Origin: an uncultured Alphaproteobacteria bacterium
GTDB taxonomy: Bacteria > Bacteroidota > Ignavibacteria > OLB7
DNA length: 64,000 bases
Assembly: GCA_964462535.1 (NCBI GenBank)
Contig: CAYWXV010000001.1
Span: 165,380 to 229,379, forward strand
Direction of reading: 5' to 3'
Shown here: in pieces, positions 32,017 through 34,262 of the stretch
Layout: the number at the start of each line of letters is the position of its first letter
Position numbering within the stretch: the stretch's first letter is position 1
Program-made: the position numbers and the translations under genes
The notes under the pieces: generated by a model
What the model saw: only the letters and a program-made list of their open reading frames with translations
What the model was told of the DNA's origin: nothing
The model's database searches: none

Positions 32017-32784
32017 TTGCGCATGACCGATCCGTCGTTGCCATGGAAGAAGGTTATCGTGGTGGGTGGTTCGACGGGGATCGGCGCCGCCGTAACGCGC
32101 AGGCTCGCCGCCAATGGATCGCGGATAGCCGTCGTCGCGCGGCGCTCGGATGCACTCCACGCTCTCGCAGGGGAGTTGAACGCAATCGTTGGGGAGGGGA
32201 CGGTGCTCCCCTACGAACACGACGTCCGCAATTGGGAGGAAGCATCGGCCCTGTTTCAGGACATTGCGAGCCAACTGGGCGGGATTGATCTTGTGGTGTA
32301 CGCCGCCGCATTTCAGCCCGATGTACGCCCCGACGAGTACGACACAGGCCAGGACGTTGCCATCATTCAAACCAACCTGGTCGGGTGTATCGCATGGTTG
32401 AACCCGGCAGCTGCTCGATTTGGAGCGCTGAAGGAGGGGACAATCGTTGCCGTCTCGTCGATCGCGGGTGATCGTGGGAGGCGTGGCGCCCCGGTGTACG
32501 GTGCTTCGAAAGGGGGGCTGACCGTCTACATGGAGTCATTGCGAAATCGTTTGTCCCAACACGGTGTGGTTGTGACGACGGTGAAGCCCGGATTTGTCGA
32601 CACACGACTTACGCGGGGAAAGGAGGGCCTGTTCTGGGTCATATCACCCGAGCGGGCGGCCGAGTTGATTCTGCGCGCAGCGCGACGTAGACGATCGACA
32701 GCATACGTTCCCGCACGGTGGCGACTTGTCGCTACCATCGTCAGATCCATCCCGTCTATCTTGTTCCGCAGGTTGAGTTTCTAG
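32017..32784 (+). CDS. DprE2-like short-chain dehydrogenase (decaprenylphospho-2'-keto-ribose reductase family).
   Basis: Rossmann VIVVGGSTGIGAAV. YGASKGGL catalytic Tyr/Lys. The C-terminal ...IVRSIPSILFRRLSF closely matches the DprE2 C-terminus ([12 protein letters not shown]). Confidence 0.7.
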   Translation: MRMTDPSLPWKKVIVVGGSTGIGAAVTRRLAANGSRIAVVARRSDALHALAGELNAIVGEGTVLPYEHDVRNWEEASALFQDIASQLGGIDLVVYAAAFQPDVRPDEYDTGQDVAIIQTNLVGCIAWLNPAAARFGALKEGTIVAVSSIAGDRGRRGAPVYGASKGGLTVYMESLRNRLSQHGVVVTTVKPGFVDTRLTRGKEGLFWVISPERAAELILRAARRRRSTAYVPARWRLVATIVRSIPSILFRRLSF

Positions 32785-34262
32785 TGCCCGCACCTTCCCG
32801 TCCACACGCCACCCAATCTCGCGATATCCGACCACGCGAGTCACTCCCACCGGACCGGCTCGAAATCGTACAGGGGTTCGGTCAGAGCAGTCGAAGCGTC
32901 GGTTACGTATATCGCCCATCGGGCCTGGAGGACCTTGAGGAGGTCTTCTACGTGGCGCGTCGCTCGGGCAGGACAATCGGGCTTCGCGGCGCTGGTAGAA
33001 GCTATGGCGACGCTGCCCAGAACAATGAAGAGATCGTAGTCGACACGTCGCGGCTCCGACGCGTAATCGAATGGGACCCGCGTTCGGGCGTTGTCACAGT
33101 CGAACCCGGCGTGACGATCGAAGACCTGTGGTCGACGGTGTTGCCGGATGGATGGTGGCCGCCGGTGGTACCGGGGACGATGTTCCCCACGATTGGTGGG
33201 TGCGTGGCGATGAACGTCCATGGGAAGAACAACTTCCGCGCCGGACCGTTCGGCGATCACGTGCTCTCGTTTGACTTCCTGGCGCCAACCGGTGATCGAG
33301 TGTCCGTTTCACGAACCTCGGATCCGGAGTTGTTTCATGCTGCCATCGGCGGCTTCGGCATGCTCGGTTGCTTTCTGTCAATCAGGTTGCAAATGAAGCG
33401 TGTTCACTCCGGGCTCCTGGATGTCGTCGGGTTGTCCACGCCTGGACTAGACGATTCGATCGCACGTTTTGCGGAACACTGCGAGCACGCCGATTACATG
33501 GTAGGGTGGATAGACGCCTTCGCGAGTGGGACGGCTAGCGGGAGGGGGGTACTGCACTACGCCCGCCATCTTGACCCGGGGATTGACCCGTCCCCTGTGA
33601 AAACTTTGTCTCGAGAGAGTCAGCACGTCCCGAACGTCCTGTTCGGTGTGGTGCCCACTTCGATCATGTGGGTACTGTTGCGTCCGCTGATGAACAACCT
33701 GGGTATGCGTACGATCAACGCACTTCGGTATCGTTCGGGGCGAGTCTTCGACGGCTCCGCTCGGGGTTTCCGACAATCACTCGTGGCATTCTCGTTCCTC
33801 CTGGACTACATACCGGAATGGCGGAGGGCGTACGGAAACCACGGGTTCATTCAGTTCCAGAGCTTTATCCCAGCCGCCACCGCCTCGGACGTACTAAAAG
33901 AGCAGCTCCGGTTGGCGCGAGCCGCTCGTCATCCGGCCTACCTGGCTGTGCTCAAGCGACACCGAAAGGACGGCTATCTGATGTCACACGGGGTTGACGG
34001 CTACTCGCTCGCGATGGACTTCCCATTGGCCCGCTATCGAGATGAGGTCGTCAGCGTTTCCCGTCGTCTTGCCGAAGTTGCGCTGCAGGCGGGAGGCAGG
34101 TTCTACTTTGCGAAGGACAGCACGCTGACGCCAGAGACCGCCCGTGCCTCCATCGGGTCAGACGTCCTGACGAAATTCCGCACCCTTCGGAAGAAGTACG
34201 ATCCGGACGGTATTCTGCGCACCGACTTGTATGACCGTTTGTTCAACGACTGTGCGTATTGA
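32784..34262 (+). CDS. DprE1-like FAD-dependent oxidoreductase (decaprenylphosphoryl-beta-D-ribose oxidase family).
   Basis: GLRGAGRSYGD. VVPGTMFPTIGGCVAMNVHGKNNF...FGDHVLSFDFLAPTGD...ELFHAAIGGFGMLG. C-terminal GGRFYFAKDS...KYDPDGILRTDLYDRL. I start at the GTG overlapping the upstream stop; the ORF track extends to 32718. Confidence 0.75.
   Translation: MPAPSRPHATQSRDIRPRESLPPDRLEIVQGFGQSSRSVGYVYRPSGLEDLEEVFYVARRSGRTIGLRGAGRSYGDAAQNNEEIVVDTSRLRRVIEWDPRSGVVTVEPGVTIEDLWSTVLPDGWWPPVVPGTMFPTIGGCVAMNVHGKNNFRAGPFGDHVLSFDFLAPTGDRVSVSRTSDPELFHAAIGGFGMLGCFLSIRLQMKRVHSGLLDVVGLSTPGLDDSIARFAEHCEHADYMVGWIDAFASGTASGRGVLHYARHLDPGIDPSPVKTLSRESQHVPNVLFGVVPTSIMWVLLRPLMNNLGMRTINALRYRSGRVFDGSARGFRQSLVAFSFLLDYIPEWRRAYGNHGFIQFQSFIPAATASDVLKEQLRLARAARHPAYLAVLKRHRKDGYLMSHGVDGYSLAMDFPLARYRDEVVSVSRRLAEVALQAGGRFYFAKDSTLTPETARASIGSDVLTKFRTLRKKYDPDGILRTDLYDRLFNDCAY

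What the first reader, a model, noticed from the sequence alone, without database searches (positions are those of the whole stretch)
32017..34262. DprE2/DprE1-like epimerase pair (polyprenyl-phospho-ribose to arabinose) outside the Corynebacterineae
The SDR ends in ...IVRSIPSILFRRLSF, which is very similar to the DprE2 C-terminus. The downstream FAD oxidase carries the GRSYGD, PGT..T.GG...HGKN and ...GGR.Y.AKDS signatures of DprE1. Together they make polyprenyl-phospho-D-arabinofuranose in mycobacteria. Homologues are rare in Gram-negatives (Pseudomonas PA7 pilin arabinosylation, rhizobial Nod-factor arabinosylation). Their presence suggests that this FCB-type organism makes a D-arabinofuranose-containing (or related pentofuranose) surface glycoconjugate. 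The SDR comes before the oxidase, the reverse of the mycobacterial order.
Basis: partly seen in the sequence, partly recalled or inferred. Interest (0 to 1): 0.55.

Follow-up and report, generated by a model that had tools for sequence, protein, structure and literature searches.

The report
DprE1/DprE2-type lipid-linked ribose epimerase pair
Two overlapping genes encode clear relatives of the mycobacterial enzymes that turn lipid-linked ribose into lipid-linked arabinose; such pairs are common in several poorly studied bacterial phyla, so this is an ordinary member of a known enzyme system, not a rarity.

Summary
A 253-aa SDR (32023-32784) and a 492-aa FAD oxidase (32784-34262) overlap by one base (TAGTG).

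- **Oxidase:** it matches M. tuberculosis DprE1 end to end (E 1e-59, 34% identity). Its model superposes on DprE1 (TM 0.80/0.86), and the top 49 PDB fold hits are all DprE1. Lys418, His132, Lys134, Gln334 and Gln336 are kept; Cys387 is Ala.
- **SDR:** it aligns end to end with DprE2 and shares its C-terminal tail.
- **"Rare" is wrong:** there are over 5,000 homologue clusters and at least 582 GTDB species loci, from Chlorobiota/Kapaibacteria/Ignavibacteria, Chloroflexota, Armatimonadota, Sumerlaeota and Binatia. The SDR-then-oxidase order is the rule in this clade (at least 63 of 78 loci).
- **Link to the pathway:** in four relatives the pair lies 20 bp to 3.1 kb from a block holding an Rv3806c-type UbiA phosphoribosyltransferase (passes the NCBIfam cut-off) and polytopic, partly PMT_2 (GT-C) membrane proteins.
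- **Gap:** the 64-kb window holds no UbiA, GtrA or GT-C gene, and I could not examine the organism's genome.

Most likely function is polyprenyl-phospho-ribofuranose 2'-epimerisation to D-arabinofuranose (about 0.7). It is a new member of a known kind, of modest interest.

The parts
32023..32784 (+). DprE2-like short-chain dehydrogenase/reductase, 253 aa (Gly-rich loop GGSTGIG at residues 15-21; Ser146, Tyr159, Lys163)
   Evidence: Pfam adh_short E 4e-41. NCBIfam best models are PRK07102 at 195 bits, PRK07024 at 149 and DprE2 NF053786 at 147.7, all below their cut-offs. 27.9% identical to M. tuberculosis DprE2 over 247 aligned positions, end to end (the DprE2 sequence was checked against PDB 21gq_C). 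The 253-aa gene call was reproduced on four contigs.
32704..32781 (+). C-terminal tail of the SDR (YVPARWRLVATIVRSIPSILFRRLSF), shared with DprE2-type reductases
   Evidence: Clade consensus YvP.rWr.v...ir.iPSfiFrrL. The same pattern occurs in the rhizobial DprE2-like SDRs and in M. tuberculosis DprE2 ([26 protein letters not shown]).
32782..32786 (+). TAGTG: the SDR stop codon overlaps the oxidase GTG start by one base, which suggests translational coupling
   Evidence: Read from the sequence. The same 1-nt overlap was called on two independent contigs that extend past the SDR.
32784..34262 (+). DprE1-like FAD-dependent oxidase, 492 aa
   Evidence: Pfam FAD_binding_4. NCBIfam DprE1 NF053785 300 bits over profile positions 4-447 of 449, cut-off 500. 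PDB DprE1 E 7.5e-59 over residues 29-486. 33.8% identity over 447 aligned positions. AlphaFold model pLDDT 83.6, pTM 0.86. Foldseek top 49 PDB hits are all DprE1, TM 0.80/0.86.
32994..33011 (+). GRSYGD motif (includes Tyr74, the equivalent of M. tuberculosis Tyr60)
   Evidence: Most of the motif is invariant in the 30-sequence clade alignment.
33219..33230 (+). HGKN motif (His146 and Lys148, the equivalents of M. tuberculosis His132 and Lys134)
34011..34013 (+). Ala410 at the position of M. tuberculosis Cys387, the residue attacked covalently by benzothiazinones
   Evidence: Alignment. Ala410 is invariant in the clade alignment.
34110..34121 (+). AKDS motif with Lys444, the equivalent of the catalytic Lys418 of M. 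tuberculosis DprE1
34276..34291 (.). Palindrome GGCCGCCCTAGCGGCC between the convergent oxidase and DUF547 genes; a possible two-way terminator
   Evidence: The number of such sites in the region (5) is close to the chance expectation (4.1), so this is only suggestive.

Best explanation
The two genes encode a cytoplasmic two-enzyme epimerase of the DprE1/DprE2 type. The FAD oxidase would oxidise the 2'-hydroxyl of a polyprenyl-phospho-beta-D-ribofuranose to the 2'-keto intermediate. The SDR would then reduce it with NAD(P)H from the opposite face, giving polyprenyl-phospho-D-arabinofuranose. That product would serve as a lipid-linked donor for GT-C glycosyltransferases on the outer face of the cytoplasmic membrane. 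Shown here: homology, fold, retention of the active-site residues tested, obligate pairing of the two genes, and physical linkage to the ribosyl-lipid synthase and GT-C-like proteins in some clade members. Inferred: the substrate, the arabino configuration of the product, the nature of the lipid carrier, and the existence of the remaining pathway genes in this organism.
For: (1) The oxidase matches M. tuberculosis DprE1 over its full length (E 7.5e-59; 33.8% identity). The experimentally validated P. aeruginosa DprE1 is 33% identical to the mycobacterial enzyme (bioRxiv 10.1101/2020.04.19.049825). (2) NCBIfam DprE1 scores 300 bits against 60 for the next family. The rhizobial oxidase from a UbiA-GtrA-FAD-SDR cluster also stays below the 500-bit cut-off, at 410 bits. 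(3) In the fold search the top 49 PDB hits are all DprE1, and the next family appears only at E 1e-24. (4) Tyr60, His132, Lys134, Trp230, Gln334, Gln336, Lys367, Asp389, Tyr415 and Lys418 are all kept. (5) The SDR aligns end to end with DprE2, including the tail motif. Its best NCBIfam model, PRK07102, is the one passed by the rhizobial DprE2-type SDRs at 362 and 330 bits against a cut-off of 267. (6) The SDR lies directly upstream on the same strand in at least 63 of 78 loci across five or more phyla, and nothing else is conserved across those phyla. In the window the two genes overlap by 1 nt. (7) In four clade members that are 50-53% identical to the window protein (L056, L043, L085, L092), the pair lies 20 bp to 3.1 kb from a block made of a UbiA protein, a polytopic protein of about 510 aa, and a polytopic protein of about 565 aa. 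The UbiA proteins are 34% identical to Rv3806c (E 1e-26) and pass the NCBIfam decaprenyl-phosphate phosphoribosyltransferase cut-off (273 and 274 bits against 234). The ~565-aa proteins hit Pfam PMT_2 (GT-C) above threshold. (8) These UbiA-linked members nest inside the FCB subclade of the tree.
Against: No UbiA phosphoribosyltransferase, GtrA/EamA-type flippase candidate, PAP2 phosphatase or GT-C protein lies in the 64-kb window. The rest of this organism's genome could not be examined: the only contigs found carrying its exact SDR are at most about 2 kb, and no GTDB representative exceeds 54% identity. Both proteins score below the NCBIfam equivalog cut-offs. Several substrate-pocket residues differ from M. 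tuberculosis DprE1: Cys387 to Ala, Asn385 to Ser, Tyr314 to Ser, Ser228 to Val. In about 95% of the sampled loci the pair stands alone, so for most lineages the link to the synthase rests on four related FCB loci. No biochemical data exist for any member of this clade, and no paper on it was found.
Confidence: 0.7

Rival explanations
1. The pair has the same chemistry (2'-oxidation then reduction of a lipid-linked furanose), but acts on a different substrate or gives a different product. Examples are another polyprenyl-phospho-pentofuranose or hexofuranose, or a 2-keto intermediate that is diverted to another modification rather than to D-arabinofuranose.
For: Several pocket residues differ from M. 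tuberculosis DprE1 (Asn385 to Ser, Cys387 to Ala, Tyr314 to Ser, Ser228 to Val). The clade forms its own branch, about equally distant (33-35% identity) from the mycobacterial and alphaproteobacterial enzymes. Both proteins fall below the equivalog cut-offs. Kelly et al. show that auxiliary epimerases diversify the pentofuranose in such systems (PMC11127046).
Against: The ten conserved DprE1 active-site residues tested are retained, including Lys418 and the residues around the flavin. The linked UbiA enzymes pass the phosphoribosyltransferase cut-off, which points to a ribosyl-lipid as the starting substrate. In the known systems the xylo epimer is made by a single GalE-like SDR, whereas DprE1/E2 homologues go with arabinofuranose (PMC11127046).
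Confidence: 0.15
2. A redox pair of lipid metabolism unrelated to glycan donors, for example an ether-lipid route. In that reading the FAD enzyme would resemble alkyl-DHAP synthase, the SDR would resemble acyl/alkyl-DHAP reductase, and an acyltransferase would complete the route.
For: In three Chloroflexota loci a gene that looks like a PlsC-type acyltransferase lies just upstream of the SDR. This rests on the HX4D-like motif FPNHASFLDP read by eye; no family search was run on it. Alkyl-DHAP synthase belongs to the same FAD_binding_4 superfamily and appears in the PDB hit list.
Against: Alkyl-DHAP synthase matches only the FAD domain, at E 4e-4, against E 1e-59 over the full length for DprE1. 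The fold search ranks DprE1 alone at the top. The acyltransferase-like neighbour occurs in only 3 of 78 loci. The SDR shares the DprE2-specific tail.
Confidence: 0.03
3. An orphan pair: intact DprE1/E2-type genes kept in a genome that has lost, or never had, the ribosyl-lipid synthase and the transferases. In that case no arabinosylated product would be made, or the enzymes would have been recruited for something unknown.
For: The window contains none of the partner genes. In its lineage the pair sits among housekeeping genes in the order SLBB, SBP, Cys/Met PLP enzyme, SDR, FAD oxidase, DUF547, RibH.
Against: Both genes are intact, coupled and conserved in synteny at 54-69% identity across the lineage. 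In two related genomes the UbiA/GT-C-like block also stands without the pair within 10 kb, so separate placement of the two modules occurs. NCBI names many UbiA proteins from Kapaibacteria and Ignavibacteriota as decaprenyl-phosphate phosphoribosyltransferase.
Confidence: 0.1

Closest known systems
Mycobacterium tuberculosis DprE1 (Rv3790) / DprE2 (Rv3791), decaprenylphosphoryl-beta-D-ribose 2'-epimerase
   Same: Same fold and full-length homology: 33.8% and 27.9% identity, TM 0.80/0.86. The ten conserved active-site residues tested are kept, including catalytic Lys418. The DprE2-type C-terminal tail is shared. The two genes are adjacent and coupled.
   Different: Gene order is reversed (SDR first). 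Cys387 is Ala, so covalent benzothiazinone inhibition is not expected (inference from established knowledge of that mechanism). Scores are below the NCBIfam equivalog cut-offs. No neighbouring Rv3806c, Rv3807c, GtrA-like or Emb/Aft genes are in the window. The host is an FCB-type diderm, so the carrier is more likely undecaprenyl than decaprenyl phosphate (inference).
Pseudomonas aeruginosa PA7/Pa5196 D-Araf cluster PsPA7_6245-6251 (DprE1 = 6248, DprE2 = 6249) for pilin arabinosylation by TfpW
   Same: A non-actinobacterial DprE1/E2 pair at a similar distance from the mycobacterial enzymes (33% identity). The enzymes are cytoplasmic and lack signal peptides. The donor is used by a GT-C-like enzyme with an acidic motif in its first periplasmic loop. 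The ~510-aa proteins next to UbiA in L056, L043 and L085 have an invariant LDD there (the loop assignment is my inference from crude hydropathy).
   Different: In Pseudomonas the synthase, phosphatase, GtrA-like protein and epimerase are in one cluster with the order DprE1 then DprE2. In the window the pair is isolated. No pilin or TfpW context is present.
Rhizobial UbiA-GtrA-FAD-SDR clusters, including the one next to nodABC on a Sinorhizobium alkalisoli plasmid (Nod-factor arabinosylation type)
   Same: Homologous oxidase, about 33-35% identity. Homologous SDR that shares the best NCBIfam model PRK07102 and the tail motif.
   Different: The rhizobial order is FAD then SDR, always with UbiA and GtrA directly upstream and membrane proteins downstream. 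The window clade is a separate branch with the opposite order and is usually stand-alone.
Three-component pentofuranose glycosylation systems (polyprenyl-phosphoribose synthase, flippase, GT-C GT136; Citrobacter youngae O1/O2; Kelly et al. 2024, PMC11127046)
   Same: Same overall logic in the relatives L056, L043, L085 and L092: a UbiA-type synthase, polytopic GT-C-like proteins and an auxiliary epimerase that sets the identity of the pentose.
   Different: No MATE flippase was seen. An EamA transporter lies beside the pair in L085 and L092. Three of the membrane-protein families have no Pfam hit above threshold, and none of the four L056 proteins has any NCBIfam hit; profiles of two of the three families (A2, A4) found nothing in the PDB. 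None of these components is in the window itself.

Membership tests
DprE1 (polyprenyl-phospho-ribose 2'-oxidase, VAO-type flavoenzyme) | Full-length sequence homology to characterised DprE1, clearly above other FAD_binding_4 families | tested here: met
   PDB DprE1 E 7.5e-59 over residues 29-486; the next family (glycolate oxidase) is at 6e-16 and covers only the FAD domain. NCBIfam DprE1 300 bits against 60 for the next model.
DprE1 (polyprenyl-phospho-ribose 2'-oxidase, VAO-type flavoenzyme) | Score above the curated NCBIfam equivalog cut-off (NF053785, 500 bits) | tested here: not met
   300.3 bits. The rhizobial oxidase from a UbiA-GtrA-FAD-SDR cluster also fails, at 410 bits, so the cut-off appears tuned to actinobacterial enzymes.
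DprE1 (polyprenyl-phospho-ribose 2'-oxidase, VAO-type flavoenzyme) | Two-domain DprE1 fold (FAD-binding domain plus substrate-binding domain) | tested here: met
   Model pLDDT 83.6, pTM 0.86. Foldseek top 49 PDB hits are all DprE1, TM 0.80/0.86, E 1.8e-39.
DprE1 (polyprenyl-phospho-ribose 2'-oxidase, VAO-type flavoenzyme) | Catalytic Lys418 and residues around the flavin and substrate (Tyr60, His132, Lys134, Gln334, Gln336, Lys367, Tyr415) | tested here: met
   All are conserved in the pairwise alignment, and Tyr74, His146, Lys148, Gln357, Gln359, Lys391, Tyr441 and Lys444 are invariant in the 30-sequence clade alignment.
DprE1 (polyprenyl-phospho-ribose 2'-oxidase, VAO-type flavoenzyme) | Cys387, the benzothiazinone-reactive residue (a drug-sensitivity marker; not required for catalysis according to established knowledge) | tested here: not met
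   Ala410 is at this position and is invariant in the clade.
DprE1 (polyprenyl-phospho-ribose 2'-oxidase, VAO-type flavoenzyme) | Oxidation of polyprenyl-phospho-beta-D-ribofuranose to the 2'-keto sugar | not testable with these tools
   Needs an enzyme assay with farnesyl- or undecaprenyl-phospho-ribose.
DprE2 (2'-keto-pentofuranosyl-phospho-polyprenol reductase, classical SDR) | Classical SDR motifs: Gly-rich NAD(P) loop and the Ser/Tyr/Lys catalytic residues | tested here: met
   GGSTGIG at residues 15-21; Ser146, Tyr159 and Lys163 align with DprE2 SSAAG and YGSTK. Pfam adh_short E 4e-41.
DprE2 (2'-keto-pentofuranosyl-phospho-polyprenol reductase, classical SDR) | End-to-end alignment with DprE2, including the C-terminal tail R.V...R.IP..FR.L | tested here: met
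   PDB 21gq_C matched over query residues 10-251 and chain residues 11-252. Tail conservation across the clade, the rhizobial SDRs and M. tuberculosis DprE2.
DprE2 (2'-keto-pentofuranosyl-phospho-polyprenol reductase, classical SDR) | Score above the curated cut-off of NF053786 (DprE2, 250 bits) or NF005489 (PRK07102, 267 bits; the model passed by rhizobial DprE2-type SDRs) | tested here: not met
   147.7 and 195.3 bits. PRK07102 is still the top model of 226 matched.
DprE2 (2'-keto-pentofuranosyl-phospho-polyprenol reductase, classical SDR) | Encoded next to, and co-conserved with, a DprE1-type oxidase | tested here: met
   1-nt overlap in the window. Adjacent on the same strand in at least 63 of 78 loci.
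Lipid-linked pentofuranose (arabinofuranose) glycosylation pathway | UbiA-family PRPP:polyprenyl-phosphate phosphoribosyltransferase (Rv3806c type) in the same genome | tested here: inconclusive
   Absent from the 64-kb window (tblastn with Rv3806c and with FCB and rhizobial homologues; Pfam). The rest of the genome is not available. Present close to the pair (1.7-6.3 kb from the oxidase gene) in the clade members L056, L043, L085 and L092, and passing the NF008977 cut-off for the two scanned (L056, L085).
Lipid-linked pentofuranose (arabinofuranose) glycosylation pathway | GT-C glycosyltransferase(s) that use the lipid-linked donor | tested here: inconclusive
   None in the window. In relatives, the ~565-aa proteins hit PMT_2 above threshold (28.9 bits against 26.1). 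The other polytopic families have no Pfam hit above threshold and no NCBIfam hit, and profiles of two families found nothing in the PDB.
Lipid-linked pentofuranose (arabinofuranose) glycosylation pathway | D-arabinofuranose present in a surface glycoconjugate | not testable with these tools
   Needs sugar composition and linkage analysis of a cultured clade member.

The most novel reading that the evidence does not exclude
The stand-alone SDR-then-oxidase operon marks a conserved, mostly vertically inherited lipid-linked D-arabinofuranose pathway in Kapaibacteria/Ignavibacteria/Chlorobiota, Chloroflexota, Armatimonadota, Sumerlaeota and Binatia. That pathway would feed an as yet undescribed arabinosylated envelope polymer or glycoprotein. 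The polymer would be built by polytopic transferases, most of which match no curated family or solved structure. If so, arabinan-type chemistry would be a widespread envelope trait well beyond the Actinobacteria.
Probability: 0.35. Interest if true: 0.6.

Novelty: new member of a known kind. Interest (0 to 1): 0.3.

Why it matters
For this window the result is mainly a correction. The gene pair is a good DprE1/DprE2 homologue, but such pairs are common, and the general concept of a ribosyl-lipid synthase, an epimerase and a GT-C enzyme outside the mycobacteria is already published.

The wider point is modestly useful. A large clade of these pairs, whose branching broadly follows taxonomy, exists in phyla that are mostly uncultured and for which my literature searches found no report of arabinofuranose glycoconjugates or of this gene pair. 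In some members it sits next to a phosphoribosyltransferase and uncharacterised polytopic membrane proteins. Those proteins are candidate new arabinofuranosyltransferase families. The clade also lacks the cysteine targeted by benzothiazinones.

Tried and rejected
1. **Apparent SDR-oxidase fusions.** ORFs of 636-747 aa in L015, L021, L053 and L064 looked like fusions. They are artefacts of my ORF caller extending upstream in another frame; their N-terminal parts do not match the SDR.

2. **Ether-lipid reading.** I considered an alkyl-DHAP synthase plus reductase plus acyltransferase route because an acyltransferase-like gene neighbours the pair in three Chloroflexota loci. I rejected it on the DprE1-specific full-length match and fold.

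3. **Search for other conserved neighbours.** I clustered all proteins from 84 stretches (83 loci plus the window). Nothing except the SDR is conserved across phyla; the other recurring neighbours reflect lineage-specific synteny.

4. **Classifying the polytopic partner proteins.** Profile searches of the PDB with two of the three families gave no hits, and NCBIfam gave none. Only PMT_2 and a weak PTPS_related/YfhO signal were found.

5. **Showing genome-level co-occurrence.** I tried to match contig lengths between the oxidase and UbiA hit lists. This worked for two contigs (42,087 and 83,648 bp) but cannot be extended, because only the best 120 hits are listed.

6. **Finding a longer contig of the window's organism.** Only contigs of at most about 2 kb carry the identical SDR. 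The GTDB scan found no relative above 54% identity.

7. **Literature.** Searches for this pathway in Chloroflexi, Armatimonadetes or Ignavibacteria found nothing relevant.

8. **A wasted call.** One PDB call used too strict a threshold and did not show the DprE2 alignment. I replaced it with a local alignment against the verified DprE2 sequence.
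Full report
**What is in the sequence**

Two ORFs lie on the + strand at the reported place.
- The first is a classical short-chain dehydrogenase/reductase (SDR). Its most plausible start is ATG 32023, which gives 253 aa ending at 32784.
- The second is an FAD_binding_4 protein. The long ORF listed from 32718 overlaps the SDR. The in-frame GTG at 32784 shares its first base with the SDR stop codon (TAGTG) and gives 492 aa.
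- A gene caller run by others on four short contigs carrying the identical SDR gave 253 aa. On the two contigs that extend far enough, the next gene starts with the same one-base overlap.
- The pair is flanked by a Cys/Met-metabolism PLP enzyme upstream and a convergent DUF547 gene downstream. A GC-rich palindrome lies in the 20-nt gap before the DUF547 gene.

**Identity of the oxidase**

- phmmer against all PDB sequences puts M. tuberculosis and M. smegmatis DprE1 first, at E 7.5e-59 over residues 29-486. The next family comes at 6e-16 and matches only the FAD domain.
- NCBIfam gives DprE1 (NF053785) 300 bits across the whole profile, against 60 bits for the next model. The equivalog cut-off of 500 is not reached.
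- A global alignment gives 33.8% identity over 447 positions. It conserves Tyr60, His132, Lys134, Trp230, Gln334, Gln336, Lys367, Asp389, Tyr415 and the catalytic Lys418.
- Four pocket residues change: Cys387 to Ala, Asn385 to Ser, Tyr314 to Ser and Ser228 to Val.
- An AlphaFold model built on a 30-sequence alignment (pLDDT 83.6, pTM 0.86) finds only DprE1 structures in its top 49 Foldseek PDB hits, at TM 0.80/0.86.
- For scale, the P. aeruginosa DprE1, which is experimentally required for D-arabinofuranose synthesis, is 33% identical to the mycobacterial enzyme.

**Identity of the SDR**

- Generic SDRs score well over the Rossmann core. Only DprE2 (PDB 21gq_C) aligns end to end among the top PDB hits.
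- The best NCBIfam models are PRK07102 (195 bits), PRK07024 (149) and DprE2 (147.7), all below their cut-offs.
- I tested what PRK07102 stands for. The SDRs of two rhizobial UbiA-GtrA-FAD-SDR clusters, one of them next to nodABC, pass it at 362 and 330 bits, with DprE2 as their second-best model. PRK07102 is therefore the proteobacterial DprE2-type group.
The pattern Y.P..WR.v...iR.IP..iFrrL is shared by the clade, the rhizobial SDRs and M. tuberculosis DprE2.
The DprE1 reference was typed the same way. It was checked only by eye against the PDB alignment printed, which covers residues 29-474.

**How common is it**

The claim of rarity does not hold.
- The word-indexed search found 5,253 clusters at 90% identity with E<=1e-20. 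The top 120 are 50-69% identical.
- The exhaustive search of 50%-identity representatives found 1,207 with E<=1e-30.
- The hosts are Chlorobiota, Kapaibacteria, Ignavibacteria, Bacteroidota, Chloroflexota (Anaerolineae, Promineifilaceae, Ardenticatenaceae), Armatimonadota (Chthonomonadales), Sumerlaeota and Binatia, all represented by MAGs.
- No representative exceeds 54% identity to the window protein. The closest relative, at 69%, is on a syntenic 28-kb contig. The organism is therefore an unrepresented FCB lineage.
- Alphaproteobacterial plasmids carry 65 further homologues at about 32-35% identity.
- Kelly et al. [quoted passage not shown]

**Conserved anatomy of the clade**

- I called ORFs in all fetched loci, clustered the proteins and listed gene orders. 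The SDR lies directly upstream of the oxidase on the same strand in at least 63 of 78 loci. Most exceptions lie at contig ends or come from ORF-calling conflicts.
- The order SDR then oxidase is thus the clade's rule. It is the reverse of the mycobacterial, Pseudomonas and rhizobial order.
- No other gene is conserved across phyla. The window's own lineage shares the order SLBB, SBP, Cys/Met PLP enzyme, SDR, FAD oxidase, DUF547, RibH.
- A rough neighbour-joining tree puts the clade on one branch, apart from the rhizobial and mycobacterial enzymes. Its subclades largely follow taxonomy, which suggests mainly vertical descent. This is a distance tree without support values.

**Link to the rest of the pathway**

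- tblastn with Rv3806c against all held DNA found homologues (34% identity, E 1e-26) in two loci, L056 (Ignavibacteriae MAG) and L043 (Bacteroidetes MAG). They lie 3-4 kb from the oxidase gene.
- Matching contig lengths between the oxidase and UbiA hit lists revealed two more cases, L085 and L092.
- In all four, a block made of UbiA, a ~510-aa protein and a ~565-aa protein is convergent with the pair. L056 and L043 carry two further ~540-570-aa proteins.
- The UbiA proteins of L056 and L085 pass the NCBIfam cut-off for decaprenyl-phosphate phosphoribosyltransferase, at 273 and 274 bits against 234.
- The large proteins have 7-10 predicted membrane spans by a crude hydropathy scan. The ~565-aa family hits Pfam PMT_2, a GT-C family, above threshold. 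Each family has invariant acidic residues near its N-terminal end.
- The oxidases of these four loci are 50-53% identical to the window protein and nest within the FCB subclade.
- In two other related genomes the UbiA block occurs without the pair within 10 kb. The two modules can therefore be encoded apart, as they would have to be in the window's genome.
- Elsewhere, scattered glycan-related neighbours appear: a Wzx-type Polysacc_synt domain in Binatia, a Wzy_C domain in Chthonomonadaceae, PMT_2 in an Ignavibacteriota MAG, and weak YfhO-like proteins in Promineifilum.

**What is missing**

- The window contains no UbiA, GtrA, EamA, PAP2 or GT-C-like gene. This was checked by Pfam on the roughly 50 main ORFs of the window, and by tblastn with mycobacterial, rhizobial and FCB queries.
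- The remainder of the genome could not be reached.
The first, that the best homologues would be generic enzymes, is clearly not the case. The second, that no UbiA-type transferase occurs in the genome, remains open.

**Conclusion**

- The most likely function is a cytoplasmic two-step 2'-epimerase that converts a polyprenyl-phospho-ribofuranose to the D-arabinofuranose donor. The oxidase and reductase are made from coupled genes. My confidence is about 0.7.
- The homology, fold, residues, pairing and linkage in relatives are shown. The substrate, the product configuration, the carrier lipid and the presence of partner genes in this organism are inferred.
- The main rival is the same chemistry on a related lipid-linked sugar, or with a different fate for the keto intermediate (about 0.15). 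Next is an orphan pair (about 0.1). An unrelated lipid redox role is very unlikely.
- The finding is a new member of a known kind. Its interest lies less in this window than in the size and phylum range of the clade and in the uncharacterised membrane proteins linked to it.

Noticed in passing
window 8178-15458 (+): An ergothioneine-type gene set. It comprises an EgtB-like protein (FGE-sulfatase + DinB_2, 8178-9518), an EgtD-like histidine methyltransferase (ORF 9286-10536; Methyltransf_33 match from residue 110), a GCS2 glutamate-cysteine ligase (10241-11749) and a class-II amidotransferase (EgtC-like, 14565-15458). A pyridine-nucleotide disulphide oxidoreductase, a DinB protein and LipB are interspersed.
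   Followed up: no
window 53807-56737 (-): A MoxR-type AAA ATPase (Pfam bpMoxR, the MoxR-vWA-beta-propeller ternary system family) next to a von Willebrand A protein.
   Followed up: no
window 47937-49505 and 50963-52600 (+): Two ORFs of 522 and 545 aa with no Pfam hit flank an NfeD membrane protease gene. They are not similar to the GT-C-like proteins of L056, L043 or L085.
   Followed up: partly
window 35711-38005 (+): A 764-aa beta-propeller protein with weak Reg_prop, SGL and PorZ N-terminal hits. It is conserved in the same position in the syntenic relatives L001 and L002, which fits a type IX secretion (FCB) organism.
   Followed up: no
window 34276-34291: The perfect palindrome GGCCGCCCTAGCGGCC lies in the gap between the convergent oxidase and DUF547 genes and overlaps the DUF547 stop codon. 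It is terminator-like on both strands, but the count of such sites in the region is near chance.
   Followed up: partly
L085 8035-8976 (-) and L092 7134-8060 (-): An EamA (DMT superfamily) transporter gene lies divergently just upstream of the SDR in two relatives that also carry the UbiA block. It could be a flippase for the lipid-linked sugar. A PAP2 phosphatase gene lies about 6-7 kb away in both.
   Followed up: partly
L056 11420-18913, L043 2541-9987, L085 11479-14755, L093 and L094: Three families of 500-590-aa polytopic membrane proteins surround the UbiA phosphoribosyltransferase. The four L056 members have no NCBIfam match, and profiles of two of the families found nothing in the PDB. 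They have only marginal Pfam hits, apart from PMT_2 in one family. In six loci the block sits beside methylmalonyl-CoA mutase.
   Followed up: partly
L011, L023, L042 (gene just upstream of the SDR): In three Chloroflexota loci a gene that looks like a PlsC-type acyltransferase lies between a PHP-like metallohydrolase-looking gene and the SDR. Both assignments were read by eye from sequence motifs (FPNHASFLDP, FPEGKTG; HMHTPYSDGE) and were not checked against a family library.
   Followed up: no
window 25610-28759 (+): SecA is 1,049 aa, and its DEAD-domain match is spread over residues 6-550. This suggests extra inserted sequence compared with the usual SecA layout.
   Followed up: no
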